From positions 1 through 13,104 of IMG/VR virus record IMGVR_UViG_2703718848_000006: 13,104 bases of DNA. One strand, 5' to 3'. The DNA comes from a virus. Its lineage: Duplodnaviria; Heunggongvirae; Uroviricota; Caudoviricetes. The position numbers were made by a program, and so were the translations under genes. The notes under the pieces were generated by a model, which saw only the letters and a list, made by a program, of their open reading frames with translations, had not been told where the DNA came from and did not search any database. Shown piece after piece: positions 2,015 to 13,104 of the stretch; within the stretch, counting starts at the first letter, position 1, and every line of letters begins with the position of its first letter.

Positions 2015-2362
2015 ATGAAGAAATTATCCCTTTCACTGATGCTGAACGTGTCGCTGGTGATGATGCTGGCACTGTCCCTGATTTACCCGCAGAGCGTGGC
2101 CGTCAGTTTTGTCGCCACCTGGGCGATTCTGGCGACGGTTATCTGTGTGGTTGCCGGTGGTGTCGGGGTGTATGCCACTGAGTANNNNNNNNNNNNNNNN
2201 NNNNNNNNNNNNNNNNNNNTGATGGTGGCGACGTTTATCTCGCTGGTCGCTGCCGGGTGGATTTTTACTGCGCTGATTTACCTCGTGGCGTCGGTGTTCT
2301 TCCGGCTGATACGTACGGCCTGCCGTCAGCGTTTTGAGGGGCGGGAACCATGTCAAAGCTGA
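2015..2362 (+). CDS. lysA: LysA-like membrane protein (lysis timing), interrupted by a 35-N assembly gap
   Basis: Hydrophobic protein (MKKLSLSLMLNVSLVMMLALSLIYP...; ...MVATFISLVAAGWIFTALIYLVASVFF) between K and lysB. N-run 2185-2219 lies inside the ORF, so true length and frame continuity are unknown. Confidence 0.65.
   Translation: MKKLSLSLMLNVSLVMMLALSLIYPQSVAVSFVATWAILATVICVVAGGVGVYATEXXXXXXXXXXXXXMVATFISLVAAGWIFTALIYLVASVFFRLIRTACRQRFEGREPCQS
2185..2219. other. Assembly gap (35 N) inside lysA
   Basis: Run of N characters. Confidence 0.95.
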
Positions 2363-3866: not shown

Positions 3867-4652
3867 TTATGAGTGATTTTTATTTGATGCTTTGTATTCT
3901 AAAACCTTCTTATTGGCGTAAAAGAATTTTGTATATGACAGGAATATAACCAGACCTGAAGTGAAATAGACGAGGGATAGTATTAATAATGCTTTTTTGT
4001 GACTGTTATTATCTTTAATCTCCTGGTTTAACCATTCGGAGTCCTCCTCGTTTAGCTGTAAGAGCTTATTGCAGGCGATCTCAGGAAGTGTGTCTTTTAT
4101 AAATACGTTTTGCAGTCTCTTGCAATCGGCAAGGGTATAAGTTTTATTAAATTCAACTGCTTTATTTTTGAAGGATAAAAGAACTTTGTCACTATAAACA
4201 TAGTACATCATGTTTTTATATGGTATGCCTATGGCATCCCTTACTATAACGGATTGTTCGTTGTGTATGTAACATGCGAGGAGAATGTAAAAAATACTGG
4301 CCAGAATTACAATTATTGTTTTAATTATGTGTGGTGGTTTTGTTATGTCACCCCAGATGCGAGTAAGGAAAAAATACGATGTTTTTAGTTTTCCATCAAT
4401 CAGTCCCTGCTGTATCATTCTCACATTTTCAATGCCTGATACATTGATTCCGTTAATTATTTTAAATAGTTGAATGTCGCGCCACTCGCGGTCAAGTCTT
4501 TTTAATTTTTTGTCTGAATATCCAAAATTGAAATAATGTGCAATAAGCCTCATAAGGTTACTTTTACCAAAGCTAAAAAATGCTAATACTGCAAAGCTAC
4601 AAAGGAAAAAAACGATTAGCCCCCACACATTAGTCACATTATAGCTGACCAT
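3867..4652 (-). CDS. Cargo (moron) gene: 261-aa predicted three-TM membrane protein of unknown function at the S-V (P2 orf30) position
   Basis: ORF with AAGGAG RBS 6 nt upstream of the ATG at 4650-4652. AT-rich (about 25% GC on a sampled line versus ~57% in flanking structural genes). Hydrophobic segments at about aa 9-28, 108-129 and 221-240. Opposite strand to all flanking tail genes. No motif I recognise. Confidence 0.7.
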   Translation of the reverse strand: MVSYNVTNVWGLIVFFLCSFAVLAFFSFGKSNLMRLIAHYFNFGYSDKKLKRLDREWRDIQLFKIINGINVSGIENVRMIQQGLIDGKLKTSYFFLTRIWGDITKPPHIIKTIIVILASIFYILLACYIHNEQSVIVRDAIGIPYKNMMYYVYSDKVLLSFKNKAVEFNKTYTLADCKRLQNVFIKDTLPEIACNKLLQLNEEDSEWLNQEIKDNNSHKKALLILSLVYFTSGLVIFLSYTKFFYANKKVLEYKASNKNHS

Positions 4653-4735
4653 TACGCTCTCCTTGAATGTTGTCTGGTAGTTCTACAAATGAATCCAGAT
4701 AGCATAACTTTTATATATTGTGCAATCTCACATGC

Positions 4736-5349
4736 ATGAACACTCTCGCAAATATTCAGGAACTCGCGCGCGCACTGCGCAACATGATTCGCACCGGCAT
4801 TATCGTCGANNCCGCGTGCAGACCGGCGGCATGTGCACCGACTGGCTTCAGTGGCTGACCCATCGCGCAGGACGTTCGCGCACATGGTGGGCACCTTCCG
4901 TGGGGGAACAGGTGCTGATTCTGTCCGTGGGCGGTGAACTCGACACGGCATTCGTTCTGCCGGGGATTTATTCCGGCGATAACCCCGCGCCGTCTGCGTC
5001 GGCGGATGCCCTGCATATCCGTTTCCCTGACGGGGCGGTGATTGAGTATGAACCCGAAACCAGTGCACTTACGGTAAGCGGAATTAAAACGGCCAGCGTG
5101 ACGGCTTCTGATTCTGTTACTGCCACGGTGCCGGTGGTCATGGTGAAAGCATCAACCCGCGTCACCCTGGACACACCGGAGGTGGTCTGCACCAACAGGC
5201 TGATTACCGGCACGCTGGAAGTGCAGAAGGGCGGGACGATGCGCGGCAACATTGAACACACCGGCGGTGAACTCTCATCAAACGGTAAGGTACTGCATAC
5301 CCATAAACACCCCGGCGACAGCGGCGGCACAACCGGGGGACCTCTATGA
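4736..5349 (+). CDS. V: Baseplate spike/assembly protein gpV; 5' region interrupted by a 2-N gap
   Basis: ATG at 4736 gives MNTLANIQELARALRNMIRTGIIV, then NN at 4810-4811, after which the reading continues in another frame as RVQTGGMCTDWLQWLTHRAGRSRTWWAPSVGEQ...GDSGGTTGGPL. Both parts match P2 gpV as I recall it. The frame break coincides exactly with the gap, so it is an assembly artefact. Confidence 0.85.
4810..4811. other. Assembly gap (NN) inside gene V
   Basis: Two N characters; the reading frame of V changes across them. Confidence 0.95.
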
Positions 5350-5697: not shown

Positions 5698-6606
5698 ATG
5701 CCGATTATCGACCTGAACCAGCTACCCGCACCGGATGTGGTCGAGGAGCTGGACTTTGAAACCATTCTCGCTGAACGCAAGGCGACACTGATTTCCCTTT
5801 ACCCGGAAGACCAGCAGGAGGCGGTCGCCCGTACCCTGACACTGGAATCTGAGCCTCTCGTCAAACTGCTGGAGGAAAATGCTTATCGTGAGCTTATCTG
5901 GCGTCAGCGTGTGAATGAGGCTGCACGGGCGGTAATGCTGGCCTGTGCCGCCGGTAATGACCTTGATGTGATTGGTGCCAATTACAACACCACGCGCCTG
6001 ACTATCACCCCGGCAGATGATTCGACTATCCCGCCGACACCGGCAGTGATGGAATCTGACACCGATTATCGTCTGCGTATTCAGCAGGCTTTTGAGGGCT
6101 TAAGCGTCGCCGGGTCAGTGGGAGCCTATCAGTATCATGGTCGCAGTGCTGACGGGCGTGTCGCGGATATTTCTGTCACCAGTCCGTCTCCTGCCTGTGT
6201 CACCATCTCTGTGCTGTCACGTGAAAATAACGGCGTCGCATCCGAAGACCTGCTGGCTGTGGTGCGTAACGCCCTTAATGGCGAGGACGTCAGGCCGGTG
6301 GCCGACCGCGTGACCGTGCAGTCTGCCGCCATCGTTGAATACCAGATAAACGCCACGCTTTACCTTTACCCTGGTCCCGAAAGCGAACCCATCCGCGCTG
6401 CCGCTGTGAAAAAGCTGGAAGCGTATATCACGGCACAGCACCGGCTGGGGCGCGACATCCGTCTGTCTGCCATTTATGCCGCTTTGCATGTGGAAGGTGT
6501 GCAGCGTGTCGAACTGGCTGCACCACTGGCCGACATCGTGCTCAACAGTACGCAGGCGTCTTTCTGTACCGAATACCGCGTCGTGACCGGAGGCTCGGAT
6601 GAGTGA
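5698..6606 (+). CDS. J: Baseplate assembly protein gpJ, 302 aa
   Basis: MPIIDLNQLPAPDVVEELDFETILAERKATLISLYPEDQQ... Position after W and before I. The 3' end overlaps the I start. Confidence 0.9.
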   Translation: MPIIDLNQLPAPDVVEELDFETILAERKATLISLYPEDQQEAVARTLTLESEPLVKLLEENAYRELIWRQRVNEAARAVMLACAAGNDLDVIGANYNTTRLTITPADDSTIPPTPAVMESDTDYRLRIQQAFEGLSVAGSVGAYQYHGRSADGRVADISVTSPSPACVTISVLSRENNGVASEDLLAVVRNALNGEDVRPVADRVTVQSAAIVEYQINATLYLYPGPESEPIRAAAVKKLEAYITAQHRLGRDIRLSAIYAALHVEGVQRVELAAPLADIVLNSTQASFCTEYRVVTGGSDE

Positions 6607-7129
6607 TTCGCGACTGCTGCCGACCGGCTCATCACCGCTTGAGGTCGCCGCCGCAAAAGCCTGTGCGGAAATTGAAAAAACGCCGGTCAGTATTCGTGAG
6701 CTGTGGAACCCGGACACCTGTCCGGCAAATCTGCTGCCGTGGCTGGCGTGGGCGTTTTCGGTCGACAGGTGGGATGAAAAGTGGCCGGAAGCGACAAAAC
6801 GCGCCGTTATCCGCGATGCCCATTTCATCCACTGTCATAAGGGCACTATAGGTGCAATCCGGCGTGTGGTGGAGCCGCTCGGCTATCTCATCAACGTGAC
6901 GGAGTGGTGGGAAAACAGTGACCCGCCCGGCACCTTCCGGCTTGATATTGGTGTACTGGAAAGCGGTATCACAGAGGCAATGTATCAGGAAATTGAACGG
7001 CTGATTGCTGATGCCAAACCTGCAAGCCGCCACCTTATTGGCCTGAACATTACCCGGGACATTCCCGGATACCTGTTCGCCGGTGGTGTGGCTTACGACG
7101 GCGATGTAATTACGGTTTACCCCGGATAA
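6599..7129 (+). CDS. I: Baseplate/tail protein gpI, 176 aa
   Basis: MSDSRLLPTGSSPLEVAAAKACAEIEKTPVSIRELWNPDTCPANLLPWLAWAFSVDRWDE... ATG at 6599 overlaps the J 3' end. Confidence 0.9.
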   Translation: MSDSRLLPTGSSPLEVAAAKACAEIEKTPVSIRELWNPDTCPANLLPWLAWAFSVDRWDEKWPEATKRAVIRDAHFIHCHKGTIGAIRRVVEPLGYLINVTEWWENSDPPGTFRLDIGVLESGITEAMYQEIERLIADAKPASRHLIGLNITRDIPGYLFAGGVAYDGDVITVYPG

Positions 7130-7139
7130 GTGAGGAATA

Positions 7140-9350
7140 ATGAGCACAAAATTCAGAACCGTTATCACCACTGCCGGTGCAGCAAAGCTGGCAGCGGCAA
7201 CCGCACCGGGAGGGCGGAAGGTCAACATTACCACTATGGCCGTCGGGGATGGCGGTGGTAAATTGCCTGTCCCGGATGCCGGACAGACCGGGCTTATCCA
7301 TGAAGTCTGGCGACATGCGCTGAACAAAATCAGCCAGGACAAACGAAACAGTAATTATATTATCGCAGAGCTGGTTATTCCGCCGGAGGTGGGCGGTTTC
7401 TGGATGCGTGAGCTTGGCCTGTACGATGATGCGGGAACGTTAATTGCCGTGGCGAACATGGCCGAAAGTTATAAGCCAGCTCTTGCCGAAGGCTCAGGGC
7501 GTTCGCAGACCTGCCGCATGGTCATCATCGTCAGCAGTGTGGCCTCAGTGGAGCTGACCATTGACACCACAACGGTGATGGCGACGCAGGATTACGTTGA
7601 TGACAAAATTGCAGAGCATGAACAGTCACGACGTCACCCTGACGCCTCGCTGACCGCAAAAGGTTTTACTCAGTTAAGCAGTGCGACCAACAGCACGTCT
7701 GAAACACTGGCTGCAACGCCGAAAGCGGTAAAGACCGCCTATGACCTTGCTAACGGGAAATATACTGCACAGGACGCCACCACCGCGCGAAAAGGCCTTG
7801 TTCAGCTCAGTAGTGCGACTAACAGCACGTCTGAAACGCTCGCCGCAACGCCAAAAGCGGTAAAAGCAGCATATGACCTGGCTAACGGGAAATATACCGC
7901 ACAGGACGCCACCACCGCGCGAAAAGGGCTTGTCCAGCTAAGTAGCGTCACCAACAGCGATTCTGAAACGCTTGCGGCAACGCCAAAGGCGGTTAAGACA
8001 GCGTATGACCTTGCTAACGGGAAATACACTGCACAGGATGCCACCACAGCGCGAAAAGGTCTTGTCCAGCTCAGTAGCGCCACCAACAGCGATTATGAAA
8101 CGCTTGCGGCAACACCAAAAGCGGTGAAGTCTGCCTATGACAATGCTGAAAAACGTCTTCAGAAAGATCAGAACGGTGCGGATATTCCGGGAAAAGATAC
8201 TTTCACGAAAAATATCGGTGCCTGTCGTGCTTATAGCGGCGCTTTGAGCACTGAAGCCGGAAACTGGACAACCGCACAATTGATTGAATGGCTAGAGTCT
8301 CAAGGGGCATTCAATCACCCATACTGGATGTGCAAATGTTCATGGTCATACGGCAATAATAAAATTATTACCGATACTGGCTGTGGAACTATTCATCTTG
8401 CAGGTTGCGTTATTGAGGTTATGGGTAATAAAGCAGCAATGACCATTCGTGTGACCACTCCGAGTACATCAAGCGGTGGTGGTACCACCAGTGCGCAATT
8501 CACGTATATCAATCACGGAGCTGATTATGCGCCGGGCTGGCGACGTGACTACAATACGAAAAATAAGCAACCGGCTTTTGCATTAGGGAAAACAGGAAAT
8601 ACGGTTGCAAATAATAAAGCGGTAGGATGGAACTGGGACAGTGGTGCTTATTGTGCACAGGATGGCGGAGCATCAAAAATGGTGCTGCATTTTTACACGG
8701 GTGAGGGAAGTTGTCCGGCAATGCAGTTTCTTGTGGATTATAAAAACAGGGGGATTTTTTACAGGTCGGCACGTGATGGGTATGGATTTGAGGCTGACTG
8801 GTCTGAGTTTTATACAACATCACGAAAGCCAACACCTGCGGATATTCTTGCTCTGGCATTATCAGGCGGAAGCATGTCAGGCAGCATAAAATTTATCAAT
8901 GATGCCTTCCTGATTTGGGAAAGAAATACTGACTGGGCGAAGATTGGTTTTAAAAATGATGCCGACAGCGACACTGATTCATACATGTGGTTTGAAACAG
9001 GCGACAACGGCAATGAATATTTCAAATGGAGAAGCAAACAAAGCACCACAACAAAAGACCTGATGAATCTTAAGTCTGATGCACTACGGGTTACCGGGCA
9101 GGTGATACCATCAAATTTCAGCAATTTTGACTCCCGCTATGTCCGGGATATCCGGCTTGGTGGTGCCGCCACATACAAACCTGCGAACAATGGCATGACA
9201 TGGACGCATCAGGCTCCGTCAGGTTGCGTATATACCGGCATTATTGTTCAGGATACCGGCTCAAACTCTGCCGATAACATTGGTGGCGTATATTACAGAC
9301 CGGTGCAGAAATACATTAACGGGACATGGTATAACGTGGCGCAGGTATAA
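7140..9350 (+). CDS. H: Tail fibre protein gpH, 736 aa: conserved N-terminal baseplate-attachment domain, internal tandem repeats, divergent C-terminal receptor-binding region
   Basis: GAGG RBS at 7132-7135. N-terminus MSTKFRTVITTAGAAKLAAATAPGGRKVNITTMAVGDGGGKLPVPDAGQTGLIHEVWRHALNKISQDKRNSNYIIAELVIPPEVGGFWMRELGLYDDAG matches the P2 H N-terminal domain as I recall it. Followed by about 3.7 copies of a 44-aa repeat and a lower-GC C-terminal part. Confidence 0.9.
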   Translation: MSTKFRTVITTAGAAKLAAATAPGGRKVNITTMAVGDGGGKLPVPDAGQTGLIHEVWRHALNKISQDKRNSNYIIAELVIPPEVGGFWMRELGLYDDAGTLIAVANMAESYKPALAEGSGRSQTCRMVIIVSSVASVELTIDTTTVMATQDYVDDKIAEHEQSRRHPDASLTAKGFTQLSSATNSTSETLAATPKAVKTAYDLANGKYTAQDATTARKGLVQLSSATNSTSETLAATPKAVKAAYDLANGKYTAQDATTARKGLVQLSSVTNSDSETLAATPKAVKTAYDLANGKYTAQDATTARKGLVQLSSATNSDYETLAATPKAVKSAYDNAEKRLQKDQNGADIPGKDTFTKNIGACRAYSGALSTEAGNWTTAQLIEWLESQGAFNHPYWMCKCSWSYGNNKIITDTGCGTIHLAGCVIEVMGNKAAMTIRVTTPSTSSGGGTTSAQFTYINHGADYAPGWRRDYNTKNKQPAFALGKTGNTVANNKAVGWNWDSGAYCAQDGGASKMVLHFYTGEGSCPAMQFLVDYKNRGIFYRSARDGYGFEADWSEFYTTSRKPTPADILALALSGGSMSGSIKFINDAFLIWERNTDWAKIGFKNDADSDTDSYMWFETGDNGNEYFKWRSKQSTTTKDLMNLKSDALRVTGQVIPSNFSNFDSRYVRDIRLGGAATYKPANNGMTWTHQAPSGCVYTGIIVQDTGSNSADNIGGVYYRPVQKYINGTWYNVAQV
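7659..8144 (+). repeat. In-frame tandem repeat, 132-nt (44-aa) period, about 3.7 copies, inside tail fibre gene H
   Basis: Copies begin at 7659, 7791, 7923 and 8055 (partial). Unit K-G-[FL]-[TV]-QLSS-[AV]-TNS-[TD]-SETLAATPKAVK-x-AYDLANGKYTAQDATTAR, with synonymous and near-synonymous nucleotide differences between copies. Confidence 0.9.
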
Positions 9351-9353
9351 TTT

Positions 9354-9853
9354 ATGCAGCATTTAAAAAATNNCAATATCAATTGACAAAGAATTTTGAT
9401 GTTGTCTGGTTTTTTTCAGAAGATGGTAAGAACTGGTACGAAGAACAAAAGTATTTTGCTGATGACACGATAAAAATAGCGTACGACAAAGATAATATCA
9501 TCCGCTATGTGGAAAAGGATGTGACAGCTATCAGACCGGATGGATTAAGTGTTGTTGAAGTGGCGGATATTACTGCTAACCGACGGGCGGACATTTCAGG
9601 GAACTGGATGTTTAAGGATGGCACAGTGATCAAACGAATTTATACGGCAGAGGAATTGCAACAGCAGGCAGAAAACAGGAAAGCCAGACTTCTTGCAGAT
9701 GCTGAATCAGTCATCCAGCCGCTGGAACGCGCTGTCAGGCTGAATATGGCAACAGACGAGGAACGCACACGACTGGAAGCATGGGAACGCTACAGTGTTC
9801 TGGTCAGCCGTGTGGATCCTGCAAATCCTGAATGGCCGGAAATGCCGCAATAA
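9354..9853 (+). CDS. G: Tail fibre assembly protein (gpG/Tfa-like chaperone); 5' end interrupted by a 2-N gap
   Basis: ATG at 9354 (MQHLKN), then NN at 9372-9373, after which the long frame continues as [20 protein letters not shown]...[47 protein letters not shown]. This C-terminal region is the conserved Tfa chaperone domain. The track's TTG at 9383 is probably not the true start. Confidence 0.75.
9372..9373. other. Assembly gap (NN) at the 5' end of the tail fibre assembly gene
   Basis: Two N characters; frame break between the MQHLKN start and the downstream ORF. Confidence 0.95.
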
Positions 9854-10087
9854 CTTGTATGAGCTCTAGTGTGAGCTTACATATCTATGGCACAGAGTAA
9901 AGCCTAATCTGACAGTCCGCTCTGTGCCAGAAGCGGACATTGCGGCGTTACGGCACGTTAGGTCAGATATTTAAATGCACATGGTCCGCTTGTGGCGGAA
10001 GGATACTTACAAGAGTTGGTGAGAGATAGTAAAATCAATATGAAAATTAAAATTCGGCAATAATTCCTGATATAGTCATCTTAATGA

Positions 10088-10122
10088 ACATAAAAACTAT
10101 CACAATAGGATAGTTTTTATGT
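10088..10122. terminator. Perfect 14-bp AT-rich inverted repeat (7-nt loop) just 3' of the cargo-2 operon; candidate bidirectional terminator
   Basis: ACATAAAAACTATC (10088-10101), loop ACAATAG, GATAGTTTTTATGT (10109-10122). Lies 13 nt beyond the stop (10135-10137) of the last minus-strand gene. T-rich on both strands, but only 3 of 14 stem pairs are GC. Confidence 0.4.
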
Positions 10123-10134
10123 CATACTTGTTAG

Positions 10135-10830
10135 TTAATCACTTAAGGAATGAAGTGAGGCTCGTTGTGCAGAGGTTAAGCTAAGGAGGATTTTTTCTCG
10201 ATACTCAGGTGCAAAGGAAAAGAAAACATCAGGAAAAATTCTTATGATAGTTGATATCATAGTCTTAACCACCTTATCAATCACCTTCGAAATATTATCT
10301 ATTTTAACCAAGTCTATTTCGGGAAAAACATTTAAAGCTTTTATGTGAGCCATTTCTTTTACAGTAGCTGTATGTACGTGACTGCATAACGAAGAGTATT
10401 CAGCTTTTAAAGTTTCATGTAGTAGAGGATTTTTTTTGAAGACAGGATGTTCCCCAGTTTGTTCAATTACCTTAAACAATGATTTTTCTTCAAGTATTGA
10501 AGGATCTAGTAAGCAACCGATTGATTTTAAAGAATTTTCAATATAACTTCGCATCATTAGATTTGCTGGTTTGTATGCACCATTTATAACCATAAACATA
10601 GCTGTACCAAGGTCAGATGAAGCTTCTTGCAATCGCTCCAATGAGTTGGCGTCTATTTTCTCCTTGGAGAAATGATACAAACAGTAAACAAGGCACATAA
10701 AAGAATAATATCTCTTATGTATCATGCTTATTTTCCCTCTTGAGTTAATATTCTCGAAAACATTTTTTAATTTATATTCAGAGAAATAAGTAACTAACTC
10801 AGTGAAATCGCTGTTTACTTCTCTCGACAT
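10135..10830 (-). CDS. Cargo-2 gene 3: hypothetical protein, 231 aa
   Basis: ATG at 10828-10830 with AAGGA RBS about 6 nt upstream. Only 2 nt separate it from the stop of the upstream gene. AT-rich. No catalytic or structural motif I can recognise. Confidence 0.65.
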   Translation of the reverse strand: MSREVNSDFTELVTYFSEYKLKNVFENINSRGKISMIHKRYYSFMCLVYCLYHFSKEKIDANSLERLQEASSDLGTAMFMVINGAYKPANLMMRSYIENSLKSIGCLLDPSILEEKSLFKVIEQTGEHPVFKKNPLLHETLKAEYSSLCSHVHTATVKEMAHIKALNVFPEIDLVKIDNISKVIDKVVKTMISTIIRIFPDVFFSFAPEYREKILLSLTSAQRASLHSLSD

Positions 10831-10832
10831 TG

Positions 10833-11339
10833 TTAGTCCTTATTGAATATATCTTTTATAACTTCATTCCAGTCATATATCTCATTTTGAGCGCTAGAAA
10901 GGTTCTTCCTCTCTTTTATTCTACTCAAAACTAGAGGGTTATTTGACATTGAATTGATAATATTATAAGCCTTACCTAAATCGGATGAGTTTTTCTCGTG
11001 AACGTCACACACGATTATGCCGATCATTTCCTCTCTAGATCTTTTTTCAGGCCTGCTGATTTCGATACCTAACATGCGTGCAAAATCATCTATATCTTTA
11101 TTTTTTTGGAAGAGATCTTTGTCTAATAAAATCCTCGGAAGATACCCAACAAGGAAACCTTTAATATCATTTTTTTTAGACTTTGAATTTCTTTCGTTAA
11201 CTTCTAAATTATCAGTATAACTATCTTGAAGTAATTCAATAAAGTTGATTCTTGATAATTTTTTTGAAATAAAGGAAAACTCCTCTAAAAAGTTTAACAG
11301 TTGCTTAATTTCTTTTGAGTTATTTTTTTTGTCAGTCAT
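10833..11339 (-). CDS. Cargo-2 gene 2: hypothetical protein, 168 aa, Lys/Glu/Asn-rich
   Basis: ATG at 11337-11339 overlaps the TGA of the ParA-like gene (ATGA overlap, translational coupling). No recognisable motif. Confidence 0.65.
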   Translation of the reverse strand: MTDKKNNSKEIKQLLNFLEEFSFISKKLSRINFIELLQDSYTDNLEVNERNSKSKKNDIKGFLVGYLPRILLDKDLFQKNKDIDDFARMLGIEISRPEKRSREEMIGIIVCDVHEKNSSDLGKAYNIINSMSNNPLVLSRIKERKNLSSAQNEIYDWNEVIKDIFNKD

Positions 11340-12166
11340 AAGTCACCTACTCTAGAGAGAAGTTCGTCAGTAATTTTAGACAGCGAAAACTTCATATCCT
11401 CATCAGTTAAATTGTTAATAAATAAGCCTCTTGTTTGATTTCTTGCCAACTCAGTACGTTTGCTCAAATATGATTTAAAGATCTTATTACGCCAACGTTT
11501 TTGATTATTGAAGTAACGAAGACTTTCCTCATATAAATTACTATTACCTTCAACCATATTAAAAACTATGCCCGCACATTCAATCTTAAGATCGAAATTT
11601 TCTCTCTTCTCATTTATAATGCTATCTAATAGATCGATACCAGTGATCGAAAGAGGATCGGGTTTGGCTGGAATGAGGTAATAATCAGATGCAATTAATG
11701 CGCTGGACATCCAAACTGATGGGGTTGGTGGGGTATCAATTATGACATAATCATAGTCATTTTCATGGATTTTAAGAAAGCGTCTAAGCTTGTTTTCTAT
11801 CCCTTCTCCTGGTTTCATTTCAATTTTATATAGCCCAAGGCTTCCGGGAACAATGTGAAAATTATCATTTAATTGAATTGGTGTTATATCGGCTAATTCT
11901 TTAGGTGTGTTAACTAAAGGACCAGTCATTGTAGATAGTCGAATTTTTGAACTATAAAAAATATCACATATGCTATCGCCTCCGCTTTTCATATGTGCAA
12001 CATATTTGCTTGTATCCATTACACATTGCGTTGCGTTAAATTGTGGGTCGATATCTATTAATAATATTTTTTGCCCAAGTTTATCTGAAAGATGATTAGC
12101 AATATTGGTAGCCAATGTTGACTTACCAACGCCACCTTTCATATTGATTAAGCTAATAACTTTCAA
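11336..12166 (-). CDS. Cargo-2 gene 1: ParA/MinD/Soj-family deviant Walker-A ATPase, 276 aa
   Basis: N-terminus (M/L)KVISLINMKGGVGKSTLATNIANHL carries the deviant Walker A motif KGGxxK[ST]. LLIDIDPQFNAT and the Walker B-like YDYVIIDTPP are also typical ParA motifs. Probable TTG start at 12164-12166 with AGGAG SD 8 nt upstream; an alternative ATG start lies at Met9. Confidence 0.85.
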   Translation of the reverse strand: MKVISLINMKGGVGKSTLATNIANHLSDKLGQKILLIDIDPQFNATQCVMDTSKYVAHMKSGGDSICDIFYSSKIRLSTMTGPLVNTPKELADITPIQLNDNFHIVPGSLGLYKIEMKPGEGIENKLRRFLKIHENDYDYVIIDTPPTPSVWMSSALIASDYYLIPAKPDPLSITGIDLLDSIINEKRENFDLKIECAGIVFNMVEGNSNLYEESLRYFNNQKRWRNKIFKSYLSKRTELARNQTRGLFINNLTDEDMKFSLSKITDELLSRVGDL

Positions 12167-12180
12167 TCTTCTTGCTCCTG

Positions 12181-12199
12181 TTTTGATTAACGCTAAGCT
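12181..12199. repeat. Direct repeat copy B (TTTTGATTAACGCTAAGCT), immediately upstream of the ParA-like gene RBS
   Basis: Matches 12394-12413 (ATTTTGATTAACACTTAAGCT) at 19/20 positions with one indel. The two copies are about 213 bp apart and bracket the AT-rich presumed promoter region. Confidence 0.6.
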
Positions 12200-12393
12200 T
12201 TTTCATCAGCATTGAAATTTAACATGTGTTTTACAAACTTATGTCTTATCACTACCTTATCATTTTTTACATACACCATAAATATTTTTAACTAAAAATT
12301 TTTGGTTTTCAACCTGAAATCTTTATCTTTAAAAACAAAACATTACAATATTTTTAGTAAGATGCCTTACCTAATGTAATGTGAATGGCTCAA

Positions 12394-12413
12394 TTTTGAT
12401 TAACACTTAAGCT
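12394..12413. repeat. Direct repeat copy C, at the distal edge of the AT-rich cargo-2 upstream region
   Basis: See copy B. A weaker related motif (TTAATCACTTAAG, 10135-10147) overlaps the stop codon at the other end of the operon. Confidence 0.55.
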
Positions 12414-12767
12414 ATGTTAATAATGGTTTTGTAAGTGTGATGAGGGTTCCATATGAAGAAGTGATTTCCCGAACAATACAACATGAATATCATCCTCGTA
12501 GTCGGTGTTTCTTCACATGAACTCTGTCGCAAATACGCTATATGAAACGTGGCAAGATGAATGTACCTGAGGTTATCAATCTTAAACCGCTTGAGAGTAC
12601 GCCCTGATCCTGCCCGTTGATAAACTAACTGCATTGTTTGTAATGCTTCATCGGTGGTGAGAACAAGTTTCGTACTTCCGCTTCTCGCTCAAAGCAGACT
12701 GTCAGATTTGATAGCGTTTTGGCTATGTAAGTTGCCAGTTGGGAAATGAGTGAGTACAAATCAGGAC

Positions 12768-12795
12768 AGGCGGGCGAATTGCCCGCCTTTTCTTT
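12768..12795 (+). terminator. Rho-independent terminator-like hairpin on the + strand, upstream of the FI promoter region
   Basis: GC-rich stem GGCGGGC (12769-12775), loop GAATT, GCCCGCC (12781-12787), followed by TTTTCTTT (12788-12795). Confidence 0.55.
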
Positions 12796-12798
12796 ATC

Positions 12799-12866
12799 TG
12801 TTGTTTCATCCACTGACCAGCCAGGTCAAATAGCGTCTCATGCACTGCCCAACAGAAAATAGTTGC
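12799..12866 (+). promoter_or_regulatory. Candidate late promoter P_F for the sheath operon (Ogr/activator-dependent type)
   Basis: TGTTGT at 12799-12804 with a partial TGT-N12-(c)CA dyad centred near 12811. Perfect inverted repeat TGACC-N5-GGTCA at 12814-12828. Weak -10-like GAAAAT at 12855-12860. GGAG RBS at 12880-12883 before the FI ATG at 12892. P2 late promoters are known to carry an upstream dyad element, but this is a partial match only. Confidence 0.4.
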
Positions 12867-12891
12867 ACCCATTAACCACGGAGTTAAACGG

Positions 12892-13104
12892 ATGAGTGAC
12901 TATCATCACGGCGTGCAGGTGCTGGAGATTAACGACGGCGCCCGCGTCATTTCCACTGTATCCACTGCCATTGTCGGCATGGTCTGCACGGCCAGCGATG
13001 CGGATGCGGAAACCTTCCCCCTCAATAAACCGGTGCTGATTACCAATGTGCAAAGCGCAATTGCAAAGGCCGGTAAAAAAGGCACGCTGGCGGCATCGTT
13101 GCAG
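12892..13104 (+). CDS. FI: Tail sheath protein gpFI, N-terminal part; continues beyond the window
   Basis: ATG at 12892 preceded by GGAG. Translation [71 protein letters not shown] matches the P2 FI N-terminus as I recall it. Open to the window end. Confidence 0.85.

What the first reader, a model, noticed from the sequence alone, without database searches (positions are those of the whole stretch)
11336..12166. ParA/MinD-like ATPase with a divergent C-terminal region as first gene of the cargo operon
The N-terminal two thirds carry the canonical deviant Walker A (KGGVGKST), the LLIDIDPQFNAT motif and a Walker B-like YDYVIIDTPP, placing it in the ParA/Soj/MinD superfamily (small type without an N-terminal HTH). 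The last ~100 aa (about 170-276) look unlike the partition ParA proteins I know. The gene probably starts at TTG with a perfect AGGAG SD. A ParA-type ATPase heading an operon at a prophage cargo site is unusual. It could act as a nucleotide-dependent switch or positioning ATPase for the two downstream effectors.
Basis: partly seen in the sequence, partly recalled or inferred. Interest (0 to 1): 0.6.

Follow-up and report, generated by a model that had tools for sequence, protein, structure and literature searches.

The report
ParA ATPase in three-gene prophage cassette
The gene is an ordinary-looking small ParA ATPase, but it is the first gene of a strictly conserved three-gene cassette (ParA, an unknown helical protein and a HEPN-like protein) that sits in prophage cargo sites and next to known defence genes in many phyla, so it is most likely an undescribed anti-phage or toxin-antitoxin-like system and not a DNA partition system.

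Summary
The ORF is real. It lies at 11336-12166 on the minus strand and encodes a 276-aa ParA/Soj-type ATPase (Pfam AAA_31, E 1e-37). The TTG start is supported: 12 homologues start with ATG at the same MKVISLINMKGG position.

The "divergent C-terminus" is not a foreign domain. It is the weakly conserved C-terminal half of the ParA fold. It aligns almost without gaps with pSM19035 delta and with Soj. On its own it matches the phage ParA profile (E 3e-11).

The notable result lies around the gene. ParA, a 168-aa helical protein (B) and a 231-aa HEPN-like protein (C) form a translationally coupled operon. The operon sits in the AT-rich P2 Z/fun cargo slot, bounded by 32-nt inverted repeats.

The same A-B-C order recurs in every locus examined where the contig allows, about 75 loci from Proteobacteria, Bacteroidota, Bacillota, Planctomycetota and Cloacimonadota. 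Neighbours include AbiTii, a BglII restriction enzyme, a defence reverse transcriptase, a Schlafen-like protein and prophage lysogeny modules. The cassette matches no PADLOC model, has no centromere repeats and is on no true plasmid.

Best reading (confidence about 0.5): an uncharacterised defence or TA-like triad in which the ParA ATP switch controls a non-canonical HEPN effector through adaptor B.

The parts
11336..12166 (-). Gene A: 276-aa ParA/Soj-type deviant Walker A ATPase. TTG start at 12166-12164, stop at 11338-11336.
   Evidence: Family invariants K10 G11 G12 K15, D38 D40 P41 Q42 N44 and D144, plus C-half residues P171 S173 T175 G176 D178 G199 Q244 E268. Start codon supported by 12 homologues.
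12175..12179 (-). Shine-Dalgarno AGGAG, 8 nt upstream of the TTG start.
   Evidence: Read directly from the sequence.
10833..11339 (-). Gene B: 168-aa all-helical protein of no known family. It has a Lys-rich N-terminal tail, a conserved FLEE(L/F)SW helix, a low-confidence linker (43-56) and a helical domain (55-165) carrying the motifs G.LP..L.D..LF..N, KRSR.E.IG and FSWN. Its start overlaps the stop of A by 4 nt.
   Evidence: (phrog_12497).
10135..10830 (-). Gene C: 231-aa all-helical HEPN-like (DUF5677-like) protein and predicted effector. Invariant residues are G84, R94, E98, Y145 and H153. There is no canonical Rx4-6H motif. It starts 2 nt after the stop of B.
   Evidence: (phrog_12265).
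12167..12676 (-). About 510 bp of non-coding upstream region that belongs to the cassette. It presumably holds the promoter and regulatory sequence, but nothing in it was identified.
   Evidence: Segment 12395-12676 is present in exactly the same 133 E. coli genomes as the operon. No Rfam match. No called gene; the 75-aa ORF is absent from the protein collection. Promoter-like hexamers are no more frequent than chance.
10088..10122 (.). 14-bp perfect palindrome, 13 nt downstream of the stop of C. Possible operon terminator (weak, AT-rich stem).
   Evidence: (I6).
9906..9937 (.). Left arm of the inverted repeat that bounds the cargo slot (P2 Z-region).
   Evidence: I1, 32 nt, 88% complementary. 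'Left inverted repeat' is annotated in the P2-EC30 Z-region record AJ512676.
12677..12708 (.). Right arm of the inverted repeat. Homology to P2-like phages resumes here, upstream of the tail sheath gene FI, whose ATG is at 12892.
   Evidence: (phage matches start at window position ~12675).

Best explanation
The ParA gene is the ATPase subunit of an uncharacterised, horizontally mobile three-gene conflict system, most likely an abortive-infection or TA-like anti-phage system. A P2-like prophage carries it as a moron in the Z/fun cargo slot.

Shown: (a) A is a catalytically intact small ParA/Soj ATPase. (b) A, B and C form one tight operon. (c) The same three genes in the same order are co-inherited across at least five phyla. 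(d) The cassette lies in prophage cargo or lysogeny slots and beside known defence genes. (e) C has a helical bundle whose best structural match is a HEPN domain, and family members hit the DUF5677 and HEPN profiles.

Inferred mechanism: ATP-bound ParA dimerises and sits on nucleoid DNA, as Soj-type ParAs do. B docks on ParA through its Lys-rich N-terminal tail and conserved first helix, in the manner of ParB, ParG or MinE-type partners. B's C-terminal helical domain holds or regulates C. C is a variant HEPN nuclease whose active site would use R94 and E98 (helix 86-105) and H153 (end of helix 135-153). Infection would change the ParA nucleotide or DNA-bound state, for example through nucleoid degradation, foreign DNA or a phage protein. 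That change would release or activate C, which would cleave RNA and stop phage growth.
For: ParA identity and intact catalytic residues.

Operon structure.

Location: the cassette sits between the tail-fibre assembly gene and tail sheath gene FI of a P2-like prophage, has about 30% GC against 55-60% in the backbone, and is bounded by 32-nt inverted repeats. From established knowledge, P2 morons old, tin and fun(Z) are all phage-exclusion genes. Z/fun is cited as a defence locus in PMC13586616, which also reports that 6 of 8 randomly chosen loci of unknown-function genes in P4 satellites protected against phages.

Strict triad: 3 of 3, then 2 of 2 sampled ParA homologues; 11 of 11 genome loci; 3 Clostridia prophage contigs; and all 62 metagenome loci fetched through B, where 48 of 48 with room on both sides have A upstream and C downstream. 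The C family has 390 representatives, all stand-alone proteins of about 230-245 aa among those listed.

Defence neighbours: AbiTii immediately downstream (L007), a BglII restriction enzyme (L015), DRT UG13b (L016, E 4e-132), Schlafen AlbA_2/HATPase_c_4 (L020), a non-specific endonuclease (L010), a PIN-like TA pair plus serine recombinases (L006), and prophage repressor/ImmA to integrase slots (L022, L029-L031).

Precedents: ParA/Soj-HEPN dyads predicted as TA systems, and the ParA-like prophage defence protein GiPD474.
Against: There is no experimental evidence of any phenotype.

The cassette matches no PADLOC-DB v2 model, and I found no paper describing it.

The one DUF5677 gene tested in Enterococcus gave no protection against six phages.

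Some loci, such as Elizabethkingia next to groESL and Thalassotalea, have no obvious defence or mobile-element neighbours.
Confidence: 0.5

Rival explanations
1. A toxin-antitoxin or addiction module whose main role is to stabilise the mobile element that carries it, with no phage-specific role. It would be a three-gene version of the ParA/Soj-HEPN dyads that Anantharaman et al. proposed: C is the toxin, and ParA (with B) neutralises it in a nucleotide-dependent way.
For: A ParA/Soj ATPase next to a HEPN gene was predicted to be a TA pair with the ATPase as antitoxin (PMC3710099). The genes are small, tightly coupled and mobile. The cassette is frequent on prophages, an integrative mobilisable element and recombinase-flanked islands. 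In E. coli S19-141 the surrounding prophage is decaying, with a tail-fibre pseudogene and a truncated sheath gene, while the cassette is intact.
Against: TA and defence roles are not mutually exclusive, so the data here cannot separate them. C is not of the MAE_18760 HEPN family and lacks Rx4-6H. The extra conserved gene B is not part of the published dyad. Adjacency to Abi, RM and DRT genes is more typical of defence islands than of simple addiction modules.
Confidence: 0.22
2. A genuine type Ib DNA partition or positioning system. ParA would work with B as an unorthodox centromere-binding or adaptor protein, and C would be an accessory factor. The system would maintain excised or episomal forms of mobile elements.
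For: The catalytic motifs are intact. The closest solved relatives are the plasmid partition ATPase delta of pSM19035 (E 3e-21) and Soj. The best NCBIfam model is ParA_partition. The Soj 'PRNVR' DNA-binding position aligns with the conserved K236/R237. B has a basic N-terminal tail like ParA partners. The cassette is found on mobile elements.
Against: The NCBIfam ParA_partition score is 90, against a cut-off of 180. B matches no ParB, RHH or HTH family or fold. There are no iterated centromere-like repeats near the operon, only one 14-nt two-copy repeat. In E. coli the cassette lies in an integrated P2-type prophage. It is on none of 72,556 plasmid records except one 4.8-Mb record that is evidently a chromosome. 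The third gene is always a HEPN-like protein. Neighbours are defence genes.
Confidence: 0.08
3. ParA alone is the active anti-phage protein, as reported for the single-gene ParA-like GiPD474. B and C would be regulators or an unrelated linked module.
For: GiPD474 (AAA_31/ParA-like, Gifsy-1 prophage) protects on its own when expressed in E. coli and Salmonella (PMC12724215).
Against: A is never found without B and C in about 75 loci. The single exception is one metagenome contig (L021) that may be chimeric. GiPD474 has a different architecture, with Walker A at residues 29-34, and a different genomic position next to the cI/cro-type module.
Confidence: 0.05

Closest known systems
pSM19035 delta / Soj (type Ib ParA partition ATPases; PDB 2oze, 1wcv)
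   Same: Same fold and size. Both have a deviant Walker A with the signature Lys, the DxDPQxNAT motif and a Walker B Asp. The alignment is collinear to residue 272, and a basic residue sits at the Soj PRNVR position.
   Different: Overall identity is only about 30%, and 17.5% in the C-terminal third. There is no omega/ParB-type partner, no centromere repeats and no plasmid or origin-proximal context. The cassette instead has two obligatory partner genes of other kinds.
ParA/Soj-like ATPase + HEPN (MAE_18760 family) gene dyads, predicted TA systems (Anantharaman et al. 2013, PMC3710099)
   Same: A small ParA/Soj ATPase gene is linked in an operon to a HEPN-superfamily protein on mobile or defence-associated DNA. 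The proposed logic is the same: a nucleotide-dependent ATPase controls an RNase toxin.
   Different: Here it is a triad, with an invariant middle gene B. The HEPN-like protein resembles DUF5677 or AF0298 and lacks Rx4-6H, whereas MAE_18760 retains the motif. Neither system has been tested experimentally.
GiPD474, ParA-like defence protein of Gifsy-1 prophage (PMC12724215)
   Same: A prophage-encoded AAA_31/ParA-family ATPase implicated in phage resistance in Enterobacteriaceae.
   Different: GiPD474 is a single gene beside the prophage immunity region and has an N-terminal extension, with Walker A at residues 29-34. No B or C partners are reported. Its sequence relationship to this ParA could not be tested.
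HepT/MntA (HEPN-MNT) toxin-antitoxin systems and HEPN Abi proteins (AbiV, AbiD/F)
   Same: A small helical HEPN-type protein acts as the presumed growth-arresting effector and is kept in check by an upstream nucleotide-using partner. They are found in defence islands and prophages.
   Different: The regulator here is a ParA ATPase plus B, not a nucleotidyltransferase. C lacks Rx4-6H. RNase activity is not shown.
P2 Z/fun moron locus (Z-region with flanking inverted repeats; records AJ512676 etc.)
   Same: The insertion slot is the same, between tail-fibre assembly gene G and sheath gene FI. It is bounded by the same kind of inverted repeats and holds an AT-rich, oppositely or independently transcribed cargo.
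   Different: The cargo differs. P2-EC30 carries one 471-aa ORF and P2 carries fun(Z). No sequenced phage isolate in the INPHARED set carries this triad.

Membership tests
ParA/Soj/MinD superfamily (deviant Walker A, SIMIBI NTPases) | Deviant Walker A KGGxGK[ST] with an N-terminal signature lysine | tested here: met
   KGGVGKST at residues 10-17. K10, G11, G12 and K15 are invariant in 32 family members.
ParA/Soj/MinD superfamily (deviant Walker A, SIMIBI NTPases) | Walker A' / switch Asp motif (DxDPQxN) and Walker B (hydrophobic run followed by D) | tested here: met
   D38, D40, P41, Q42, N44 and D144 are invariant. Pfam AAA_31 E 1.4e-37 and CbiA E 1.4e-18.
ParA/Soj/MinD superfamily (deviant Walker A, SIMIBI NTPases) | Single-domain fold collinear over the whole length, C-terminal helices included | tested here: met
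   phmmer alignment 9-272 to delta (2oze) residues 44-289. PHROG 164 covers 1-274. The C-terminal 107 aa alone hit PHROG 164 at E 3.2e-11 and Soj-C at hhalign P 2e-4. No 3D model of A was made.
Type Ib partition system (ParA + centromere-binding protein + centromere) | Cognate ParB, ParG or omega-type DNA-binding partner encoded next to parA | tested here: not met
   B has no Pfam, NCBIfam, PADLOC or PDB sequence match and no RHH, HTH or ParB fold match.
Type Ib partition system (ParA + centromere-binding protein + centromere) | Iterated centromere repeats adjacent to the operon | tested here: not met
   Only short two-copy repeats occur in 9800-12950. The best candidate is a 14-nt repeat at 12181 and 12394.
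Type Ib partition system (ParA + centromere-binding protein + centromere) | Carried by a replicon that needs active segregation | tested here: not met
   The cassette is in an integrated P2-like prophage. It is on no true plasmid among 72,556 records. Other loci are chromosomal islands or prophages.
Type Ib partition system (ParA + centromere-binding protein + centromere) | Non-specific DNA binding through C-terminal basic residues (Soj R189 equivalent) | tested here: inconclusive
   K236 and R237 (at least 90% conserved) align with the Soj 'PRNVR' segment. Binding itself cannot be tested here.
MinD | C-terminal amphipathic membrane-targeting helix and a MinD-level profile score | tested here: not met
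   The C-terminus ...ITDELLSRVGDL is acidic. minD_bact scores 36 bits against a cut-off of 213.
HEPN superfamily (protein C) | Four-helix up-and-down HEPN bundle | tested here: inconclusive
HEPN superfamily (protein C) | Rx4-6H catalytic motif at the end of helix 3 | tested here: not met
   No Arg lies 4-6 residues before the invariant H153. The invariant residues are G84, R94, E98, Y145 and H153. Variant HEPN families without the canonical motif are documented (PMC3710099).
HEPN superfamily (protein C) | Profile match to a HEPN-clan family | tested here: inconclusive
   DUF5677 is hit by 27 of 98 family members (best E 1.2e-5) and HEPN PF05168 by 5 of 98 (best 9.5e-5). The window protein itself has no hit. 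The family profile has no PDB hit.
ParA/Soj-HEPN(MAE_18760) dyad TA (predicted, PMC3710099) | Two-gene unit: ParA/Soj ATPase plus a MAE_18760-family HEPN with Rx4-6H | tested here: not met
   This is a three-gene unit with an obligatory B. No MAE_18760-type family appeared among the Pfam families listed for the C-family members, and C lacks Rx4-6H.
Known or candidate defence systems in PADLOC-DB v2.0.0 | Significant match of any component to a system model | tested here: not met
   Only a P-loop-restricted hit of A (residues 4-40) to PDC-M28B, E 3.8e-5. Nothing for B or C.
GiPD474-like single-gene ParA defence | Sequence relatedness and single-gene architecture beside the prophage immunity module | not tested
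The architecture described in PMC12724215 differs: Walker A at residues 29-34, and a single gene.

The most novel reading that the evidence does not exclude
The triad is a new class of anti-phage system. A nucleoid-bound ParA-type ATPase would act as the infection sensor, reading the state of the host nucleoid, incoming DNA or a phage ParB-like or DNA-mimic protein through its ATP/DNA cycle. It would transmit this through a new, possibly death-fold-like, adaptor (B) to a non-canonical HEPN nuclease (C). A 'positioning' ATPase would then have been repurposed as an immune switch, spread across at least five bacterial phyla.
Probability: 0.3. Interest if true: 0.75.

Novelty: new variant of a known kind. 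Interest (0 to 1): 0.58.

Why it matters
ParA/MinD ATPases are known as spatial organisers of DNA, division sites and protein clusters. A widely distributed cassette in which an intact ParA is locked to a HEPN-like effector and an unknown adaptor would add a new regulatory logic to bacterial immunity or toxin-antitoxin biology. It sits in a classic prophage exclusion slot and beside Abi, RM and DRT genes.

The result would also give an experimental handle on the ParA/Soj-HEPN modules predicted in 2013, which I found no experimental test of. In addition, it would explain a gene annotated as 'chromosome partitioning protein' in about 2.5% of complete E. coli genomes (133 of 5,426), as well as in Klebsiella and Enterobacter.

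The cassette is small (2.0 kb of coding sequence), comes from E. coli and has its own upstream region, so it is directly testable.

Tried and rejected
- **Separate C-terminal domain in ParA:** rejected.
- **MinD, FlhG, CooC, NifH or ArsA placement:** only the P-loop region matches those models, so the protein belongs with ParA/Soj/delta.
- **Known defence system:** no PADLOC model matches.
- **Literature:** searches used ParA with anti-phage/hotspot/P2-like, AAA_31, RefSeq accessions, ParA with HEPN, and DUF5677. They turned up no description of this triad. They did turn up GiPD474 and the 2013 dyad prediction.
- **Centromere repeats:** none convincing.
- **Promoter scan:** not above chance.
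- **Rfam on 9850-12900:** no match.
- **The 75-aa and 62-aa ORFs upstream of ParA:** no Pfam hit, and the 75-aa ORF is not called as a protein anywhere.
- **Foldseek PDB for C:** nothing significant. The profile of the C family against PDB sequences also found nothing.
- **Alternative effectors downstream of A-B (modularity test):** none found in 62 loci.
- **The search for related loci with the broad B alignment:** failed for lack of a conserved stretch. A narrower alignment worked.
- **Isolated phage genomes:** none carries C.
- **Plasmids:** the only hit is a mislabelled 4.8-Mb record.
Full report
**1. What is at the coordinates**

The window is the late region of a P2-like prophage of E. 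coli. It contains baseplate genes, tail fibre H at 7140-9350, a tail-fibre assembly protein at 9383-9853 (Caudo_TAP) and the start of tail sheath gene FI at 12892.

The finding's interval, 11336-12166, is a minus-strand ORF of 276 aa. It is a ParA/Soj-type ATPase:
- Pfam AAA_31 E 1.4e-37, and CbiA E 1.4e-18 over residues 4-247.
- PHROG 164 'ParA-like partition protein' E 5.7e-60 over residues 1-274.
- The best NCBIfam model is ParA_partition, but at 90 bits it is below the 180-bit cut-off.
- The best solved relatives are pSM19035 delta (2oze, E 3e-21, aligned 9-272 to 44-289) and Thermus Soj.

MinD, NifH, ArsA, MipZ and BcsQ models match only the P-loop region. RefSeq annotates the same CDS as 'ParA family protein', followed by two hypothetical proteins.

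**2. Start codon**

TTG at 12166-12164 is preceded by AGGAG with an 8-nt spacer. Twelve homologues from other phyla start with ATG at exactly the equivalent codon. All encode MK(V/T)(I/V)S(L/F)(I/V)NMKGG, which is the beta-strand that precedes the P-loop. Databases hold both a 276-aa form (at least 1000 contigs) and a 268-aa Met9 form (566 contigs). Homology favours the TTG start.

**3. The C-terminal region**

- Identity to delta is 40% for residues 9-169 and 17.5% for 170-272.
- The last 107 aa alone find no ParA in the PDB by single-sequence search.
- The full-length alignment is collinear.
- The C-terminal piece alone hits the C-terminal part of the phage ParA profile (PHROG 164 positions 369-474, E 3.2e-11) and, weakly, Pfam CbiA (E 0.003).
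- A profile of the family's C-terminal part aligns in register with the Soj C-terminus (hhalign P 2e-4). The conserved LPKRTxIA segment lies over Soj IPRNVRLA.
- Within the family the C-terminal part is 45-48% identical, against 56-57% for the N-terminal part. It has its own invariant residues: P171, S173, T175, G176, D178, G199, Q244 and E268.

At 276 aa there is no room for an extra domain. I did not model the ParA structure.

**4. The operon and its site**

ParA is followed on the same strand by B (10833-11339, 168 aa) and C (10135-10830, 231 aa). The ParA stop overlaps the B start in ATGA, and B and C are 2 nt apart.

The whole block is 29-36% GC, against 55-60% in the phage backbone. It lies between 32-nt inverted repeats at 9906-9937 and 12677-12708. 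Homology to P2, Wphi and other P2-like phages resumes exactly at the right repeat. That repeat corresponds to the annotated repeat of the 'Z-region' records of P2-like phages, such as AJ512676. This is the P2 Z/fun cargo slot, which PMC13586616 cites as a defence locus.

The cassette, including about 510 bp of unannotated upstream DNA, is present in 133 of 5,426 complete E. coli genomes. It is in no sequenced phage isolate and on no true plasmid.

**5. The three genes travel together**

The ParA has thousands of homologues. The 120 best are all full-length and at least 48% identical, and they come from Pseudomonas, Elizabethkingia, Sphingobacterium, Bacteroides, Blautia and Bacillus relatives.

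Five sampled homologues all have B- and C-like genes directly downstream, of about 165-175 and 234-245 aa. BLAST shows these are true homologues. A is about 50% identical across phyla, B 31-34% and C 26-33%, so the partners evolve much faster than the ATPase.

Three further searches gave the same gene order:
- A search through C found 11 genome loci: Hallella, Sphingobacteriales, Calidifontibacillus, a Bacillota MAG, Photobacterium, Psychromonas, Thalassotalea, two Paenibacillus, Planctomycetaceae and Cloacimonadota. All are A-B-C where the contig allows.
- IMG/VR gave the E. coli P2-like prophages and three Clostridia prophage contigs.
- A search through B gave 62 metagenome loci. All 48 with room on both sides have A upstream and C downstream, and the other 14 are cut by contig ends.

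No alternative third gene was seen. An exhaustive profile search finds 390 C-family representatives (clusters at 50% identity). Apart from fragments, all those listed are stand-alone proteins of about 230-245 aa. One metagenome contig (L021) carries an identical ParA with unrelated downstream DNA and may be chimeric.

**6. Neighbourhoods**

- Blautia and three other Clostridia prophages: between the HTH repressor/ImmA-like pair and the serine-recombinase integrase.
- Bacteroides: in a mobilisable element (MobC, excisionase-like HTH), directly after a Schlafen AlbA_2/HATPase_c_4 protein.
- Hallella: AbiTii immediately downstream.
- Paenibacillus foliorum: a BglII restriction endonuclease upstream.
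- Paenibacillus ihumii: a defence reverse transcriptase UG13b upstream (E 4e-132).
- Bacillota MAG: a non-specific endonuclease.
- Planctomycete: an IS transposase.
- Calidifontibacillus: serine recombinases and a UPF0175/DUF3368 pair.

Some loci, such as Elizabethkingia and Thalassotalea, show nothing telling. This is the usual signature of a mobile defence or conflict module.

**7. The partner proteins**

C is modelled with good confidence as an all-helical protein (pLDDT 84, pTM 0.80).
- At sequence level, 27 of 98 diverse family members hit Pfam DUF5677 (best E 1.2e-5) and 5 hit HEPN (best 9.5e-5).
- Across those 98 members the invariant residues are G84, R94, E98, Y145 and H153. There is no Rx4-6H motif.
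- The HEPN survey PMC3710099 reports that AF0298-type and AbiV HEPNs lack the canonical motif and use an alternative histidine. It also places the conserved acidic residue in helix 2 and the catalytic His at the end of helix 3. In the model, R94 and E98 lie in helix 86-105, and H153 ends helix 135-153 before a loop. That fits a variant HEPN site. This last step is inference, because I had no coordinates to measure distances.

B is modelled with moderate confidence (pLDDT 74.5).
- It has a low-confidence N-terminal part, a disordered linker (43-56) and a better-defined helical domain (55-165).
- All 18 aligned B proteins have at least two Lys or Arg residues in the first 12 residues, followed by a conserved F(L/I)E(E/D)(L/F)xW helix. 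This resembles the basic N-terminal peptides through which ParB, ParG, omega and MinE engage their ATPases (established knowledge). It is suggestive only.

**8. Explanation**

The best-supported reading is a three-gene conflict system, either anti-phage abortive infection or TA-like. In it an active ParA ATP switch, probably DNA-bound as in Soj (K236/R237 align with the Soj PRNVR segment), controls a variant HEPN effector (C) through B.

The conserved triad, the catalytic integrity of ParA, the cargo-slot and defence-neighbour contexts, and the moderately supported HEPN-like nature of C are shown. The interactions, the trigger and the RNase activity are inferred.

Precedents exist:
- ParA/Soj-HEPN dyads were predicted as TA systems (PMC3710099).
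- GiPD474 is a ParA-like Gifsy-1 prophage protein that protects against several tailed phages (PMC12724215).
- DUF5677 is enriched next to serine-recombinase-marked defence loci, although the one tested gene was inactive against six phages (PMC12632615).

A true partition function is unlikely. There is no ParB/RHH-type partner, no centromere repeats and no plasmid carriage, and the cassette sits in integrated prophages and islands.

**9. Novelty and verdict**

The ParA itself is an ordinary member of a known superfamily. As a system the triad is absent from PADLOC-DB v2 and from the literature I could search. It differs from the predicted ParA-HEPN dyads by the obligatory gene B and the non-canonical HEPN-like protein.

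I rate it a new variant of a known kind. Interest is moderate, about 0.58, and would be higher if the ParA-as-sensor mechanism proves true. No phenotype has been shown, and the decisive experiments are simple.

Noticed in passing
window 3867-4652 (minus strand): A second AT-rich island (35-38% GC) lies inside the tail and baseplate genes. It encodes a 261-aa protein with hydrophobic, probably membrane-spanning, segments. It matches phrog_2407 (unknown function) over its full length and has no Pfam or PADLOC hit. It looks like another moron, in the position of P2 orf30, and could be an exclusion protein.
   Followed up: partly
window 12167-12676: About 510 bp upstream of ParA belongs to the cassette: it is found in exactly the same 133 E. 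coli genomes. It has no called gene, no Rfam match and no convincing promoter. Segment 12400-12676 is 42% GC, against about 29% for the rest of the cargo. It holds a 75-aa same-strand ORF (12634-12407) that is in no protein collection.
   Followed up: partly
window 12181-12194 and 12394-12407: A 14-nt direct repeat TTTTGATTAAC(G/A)CT occurs twice, 213 nt apart, in the upstream region of the operon. It could be an operator or a chance match.
   Followed up: no
window 9906-9937 and 12677-12708: 32-nt inverted repeats (88% complementary) bracket the cargo. They correspond to the left and right inverted repeats annotated in the Z-region records of P2-like phages (AJ512676 and others). This suggests that cargo is exchanged by recombination at these repeats.
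   Followed up: partly
window 2185-2219, 4810-4811, 9372-9373: Runs of N (35, 2 and 2 bases) interrupt ORFs; they appear as X in the translations of 2015-2362 and 4720-5349. They are masked or unresolved bases, not biology.
   Followed up: no
window 7140-9350 (tail fibre H): The tail-fibre protein contains four tandem copies of a motif of about 45 aa (…TTARKGLVQLSSATNS.SETLAATPKAVK.AYDLANGKYTAQDA…). In the closest genome (E. coli S19-141) the tail-fibre gene has an internal stop and the sheath gene is truncated, while the ParA cassette is intact.
   Followed up: no
L021 (metagenome contig ERZ1755921 NODE_216), 6001-6843: A ParA protein identical to that of the Bacteroides locus L020 is followed by unrelated genes (227 aa; a 509-aa Big_2 protein) where B and C would be. 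This is either a chimeric assembly or a rare loss or replacement of B and C.
   Followed up: partly
L007 7729-8646; L016 3893-5539; L015 4727-5245; L020 4535-5974: Known defence genes directly flank the triad in other phyla: AbiTii fused to a PDC-M14B-like C-terminal part, DRT UG13b, a BglII endonuclease, and a Schlafen AlbA_2/HATPase_c_4/Fic-like_C protein.
   Followed up: partly
protein cluster of the window ParA: Public annotation is inconsistent. The names include 'ParA family protein', 'chromosome partitioning protein' and 'sporulation initiation inhibitor protein Soj'. A 268-aa Met9-start version is on 566 contigs. The same cassette proteins also occur in Klebsiella and Enterobacter.
   Followed up: no
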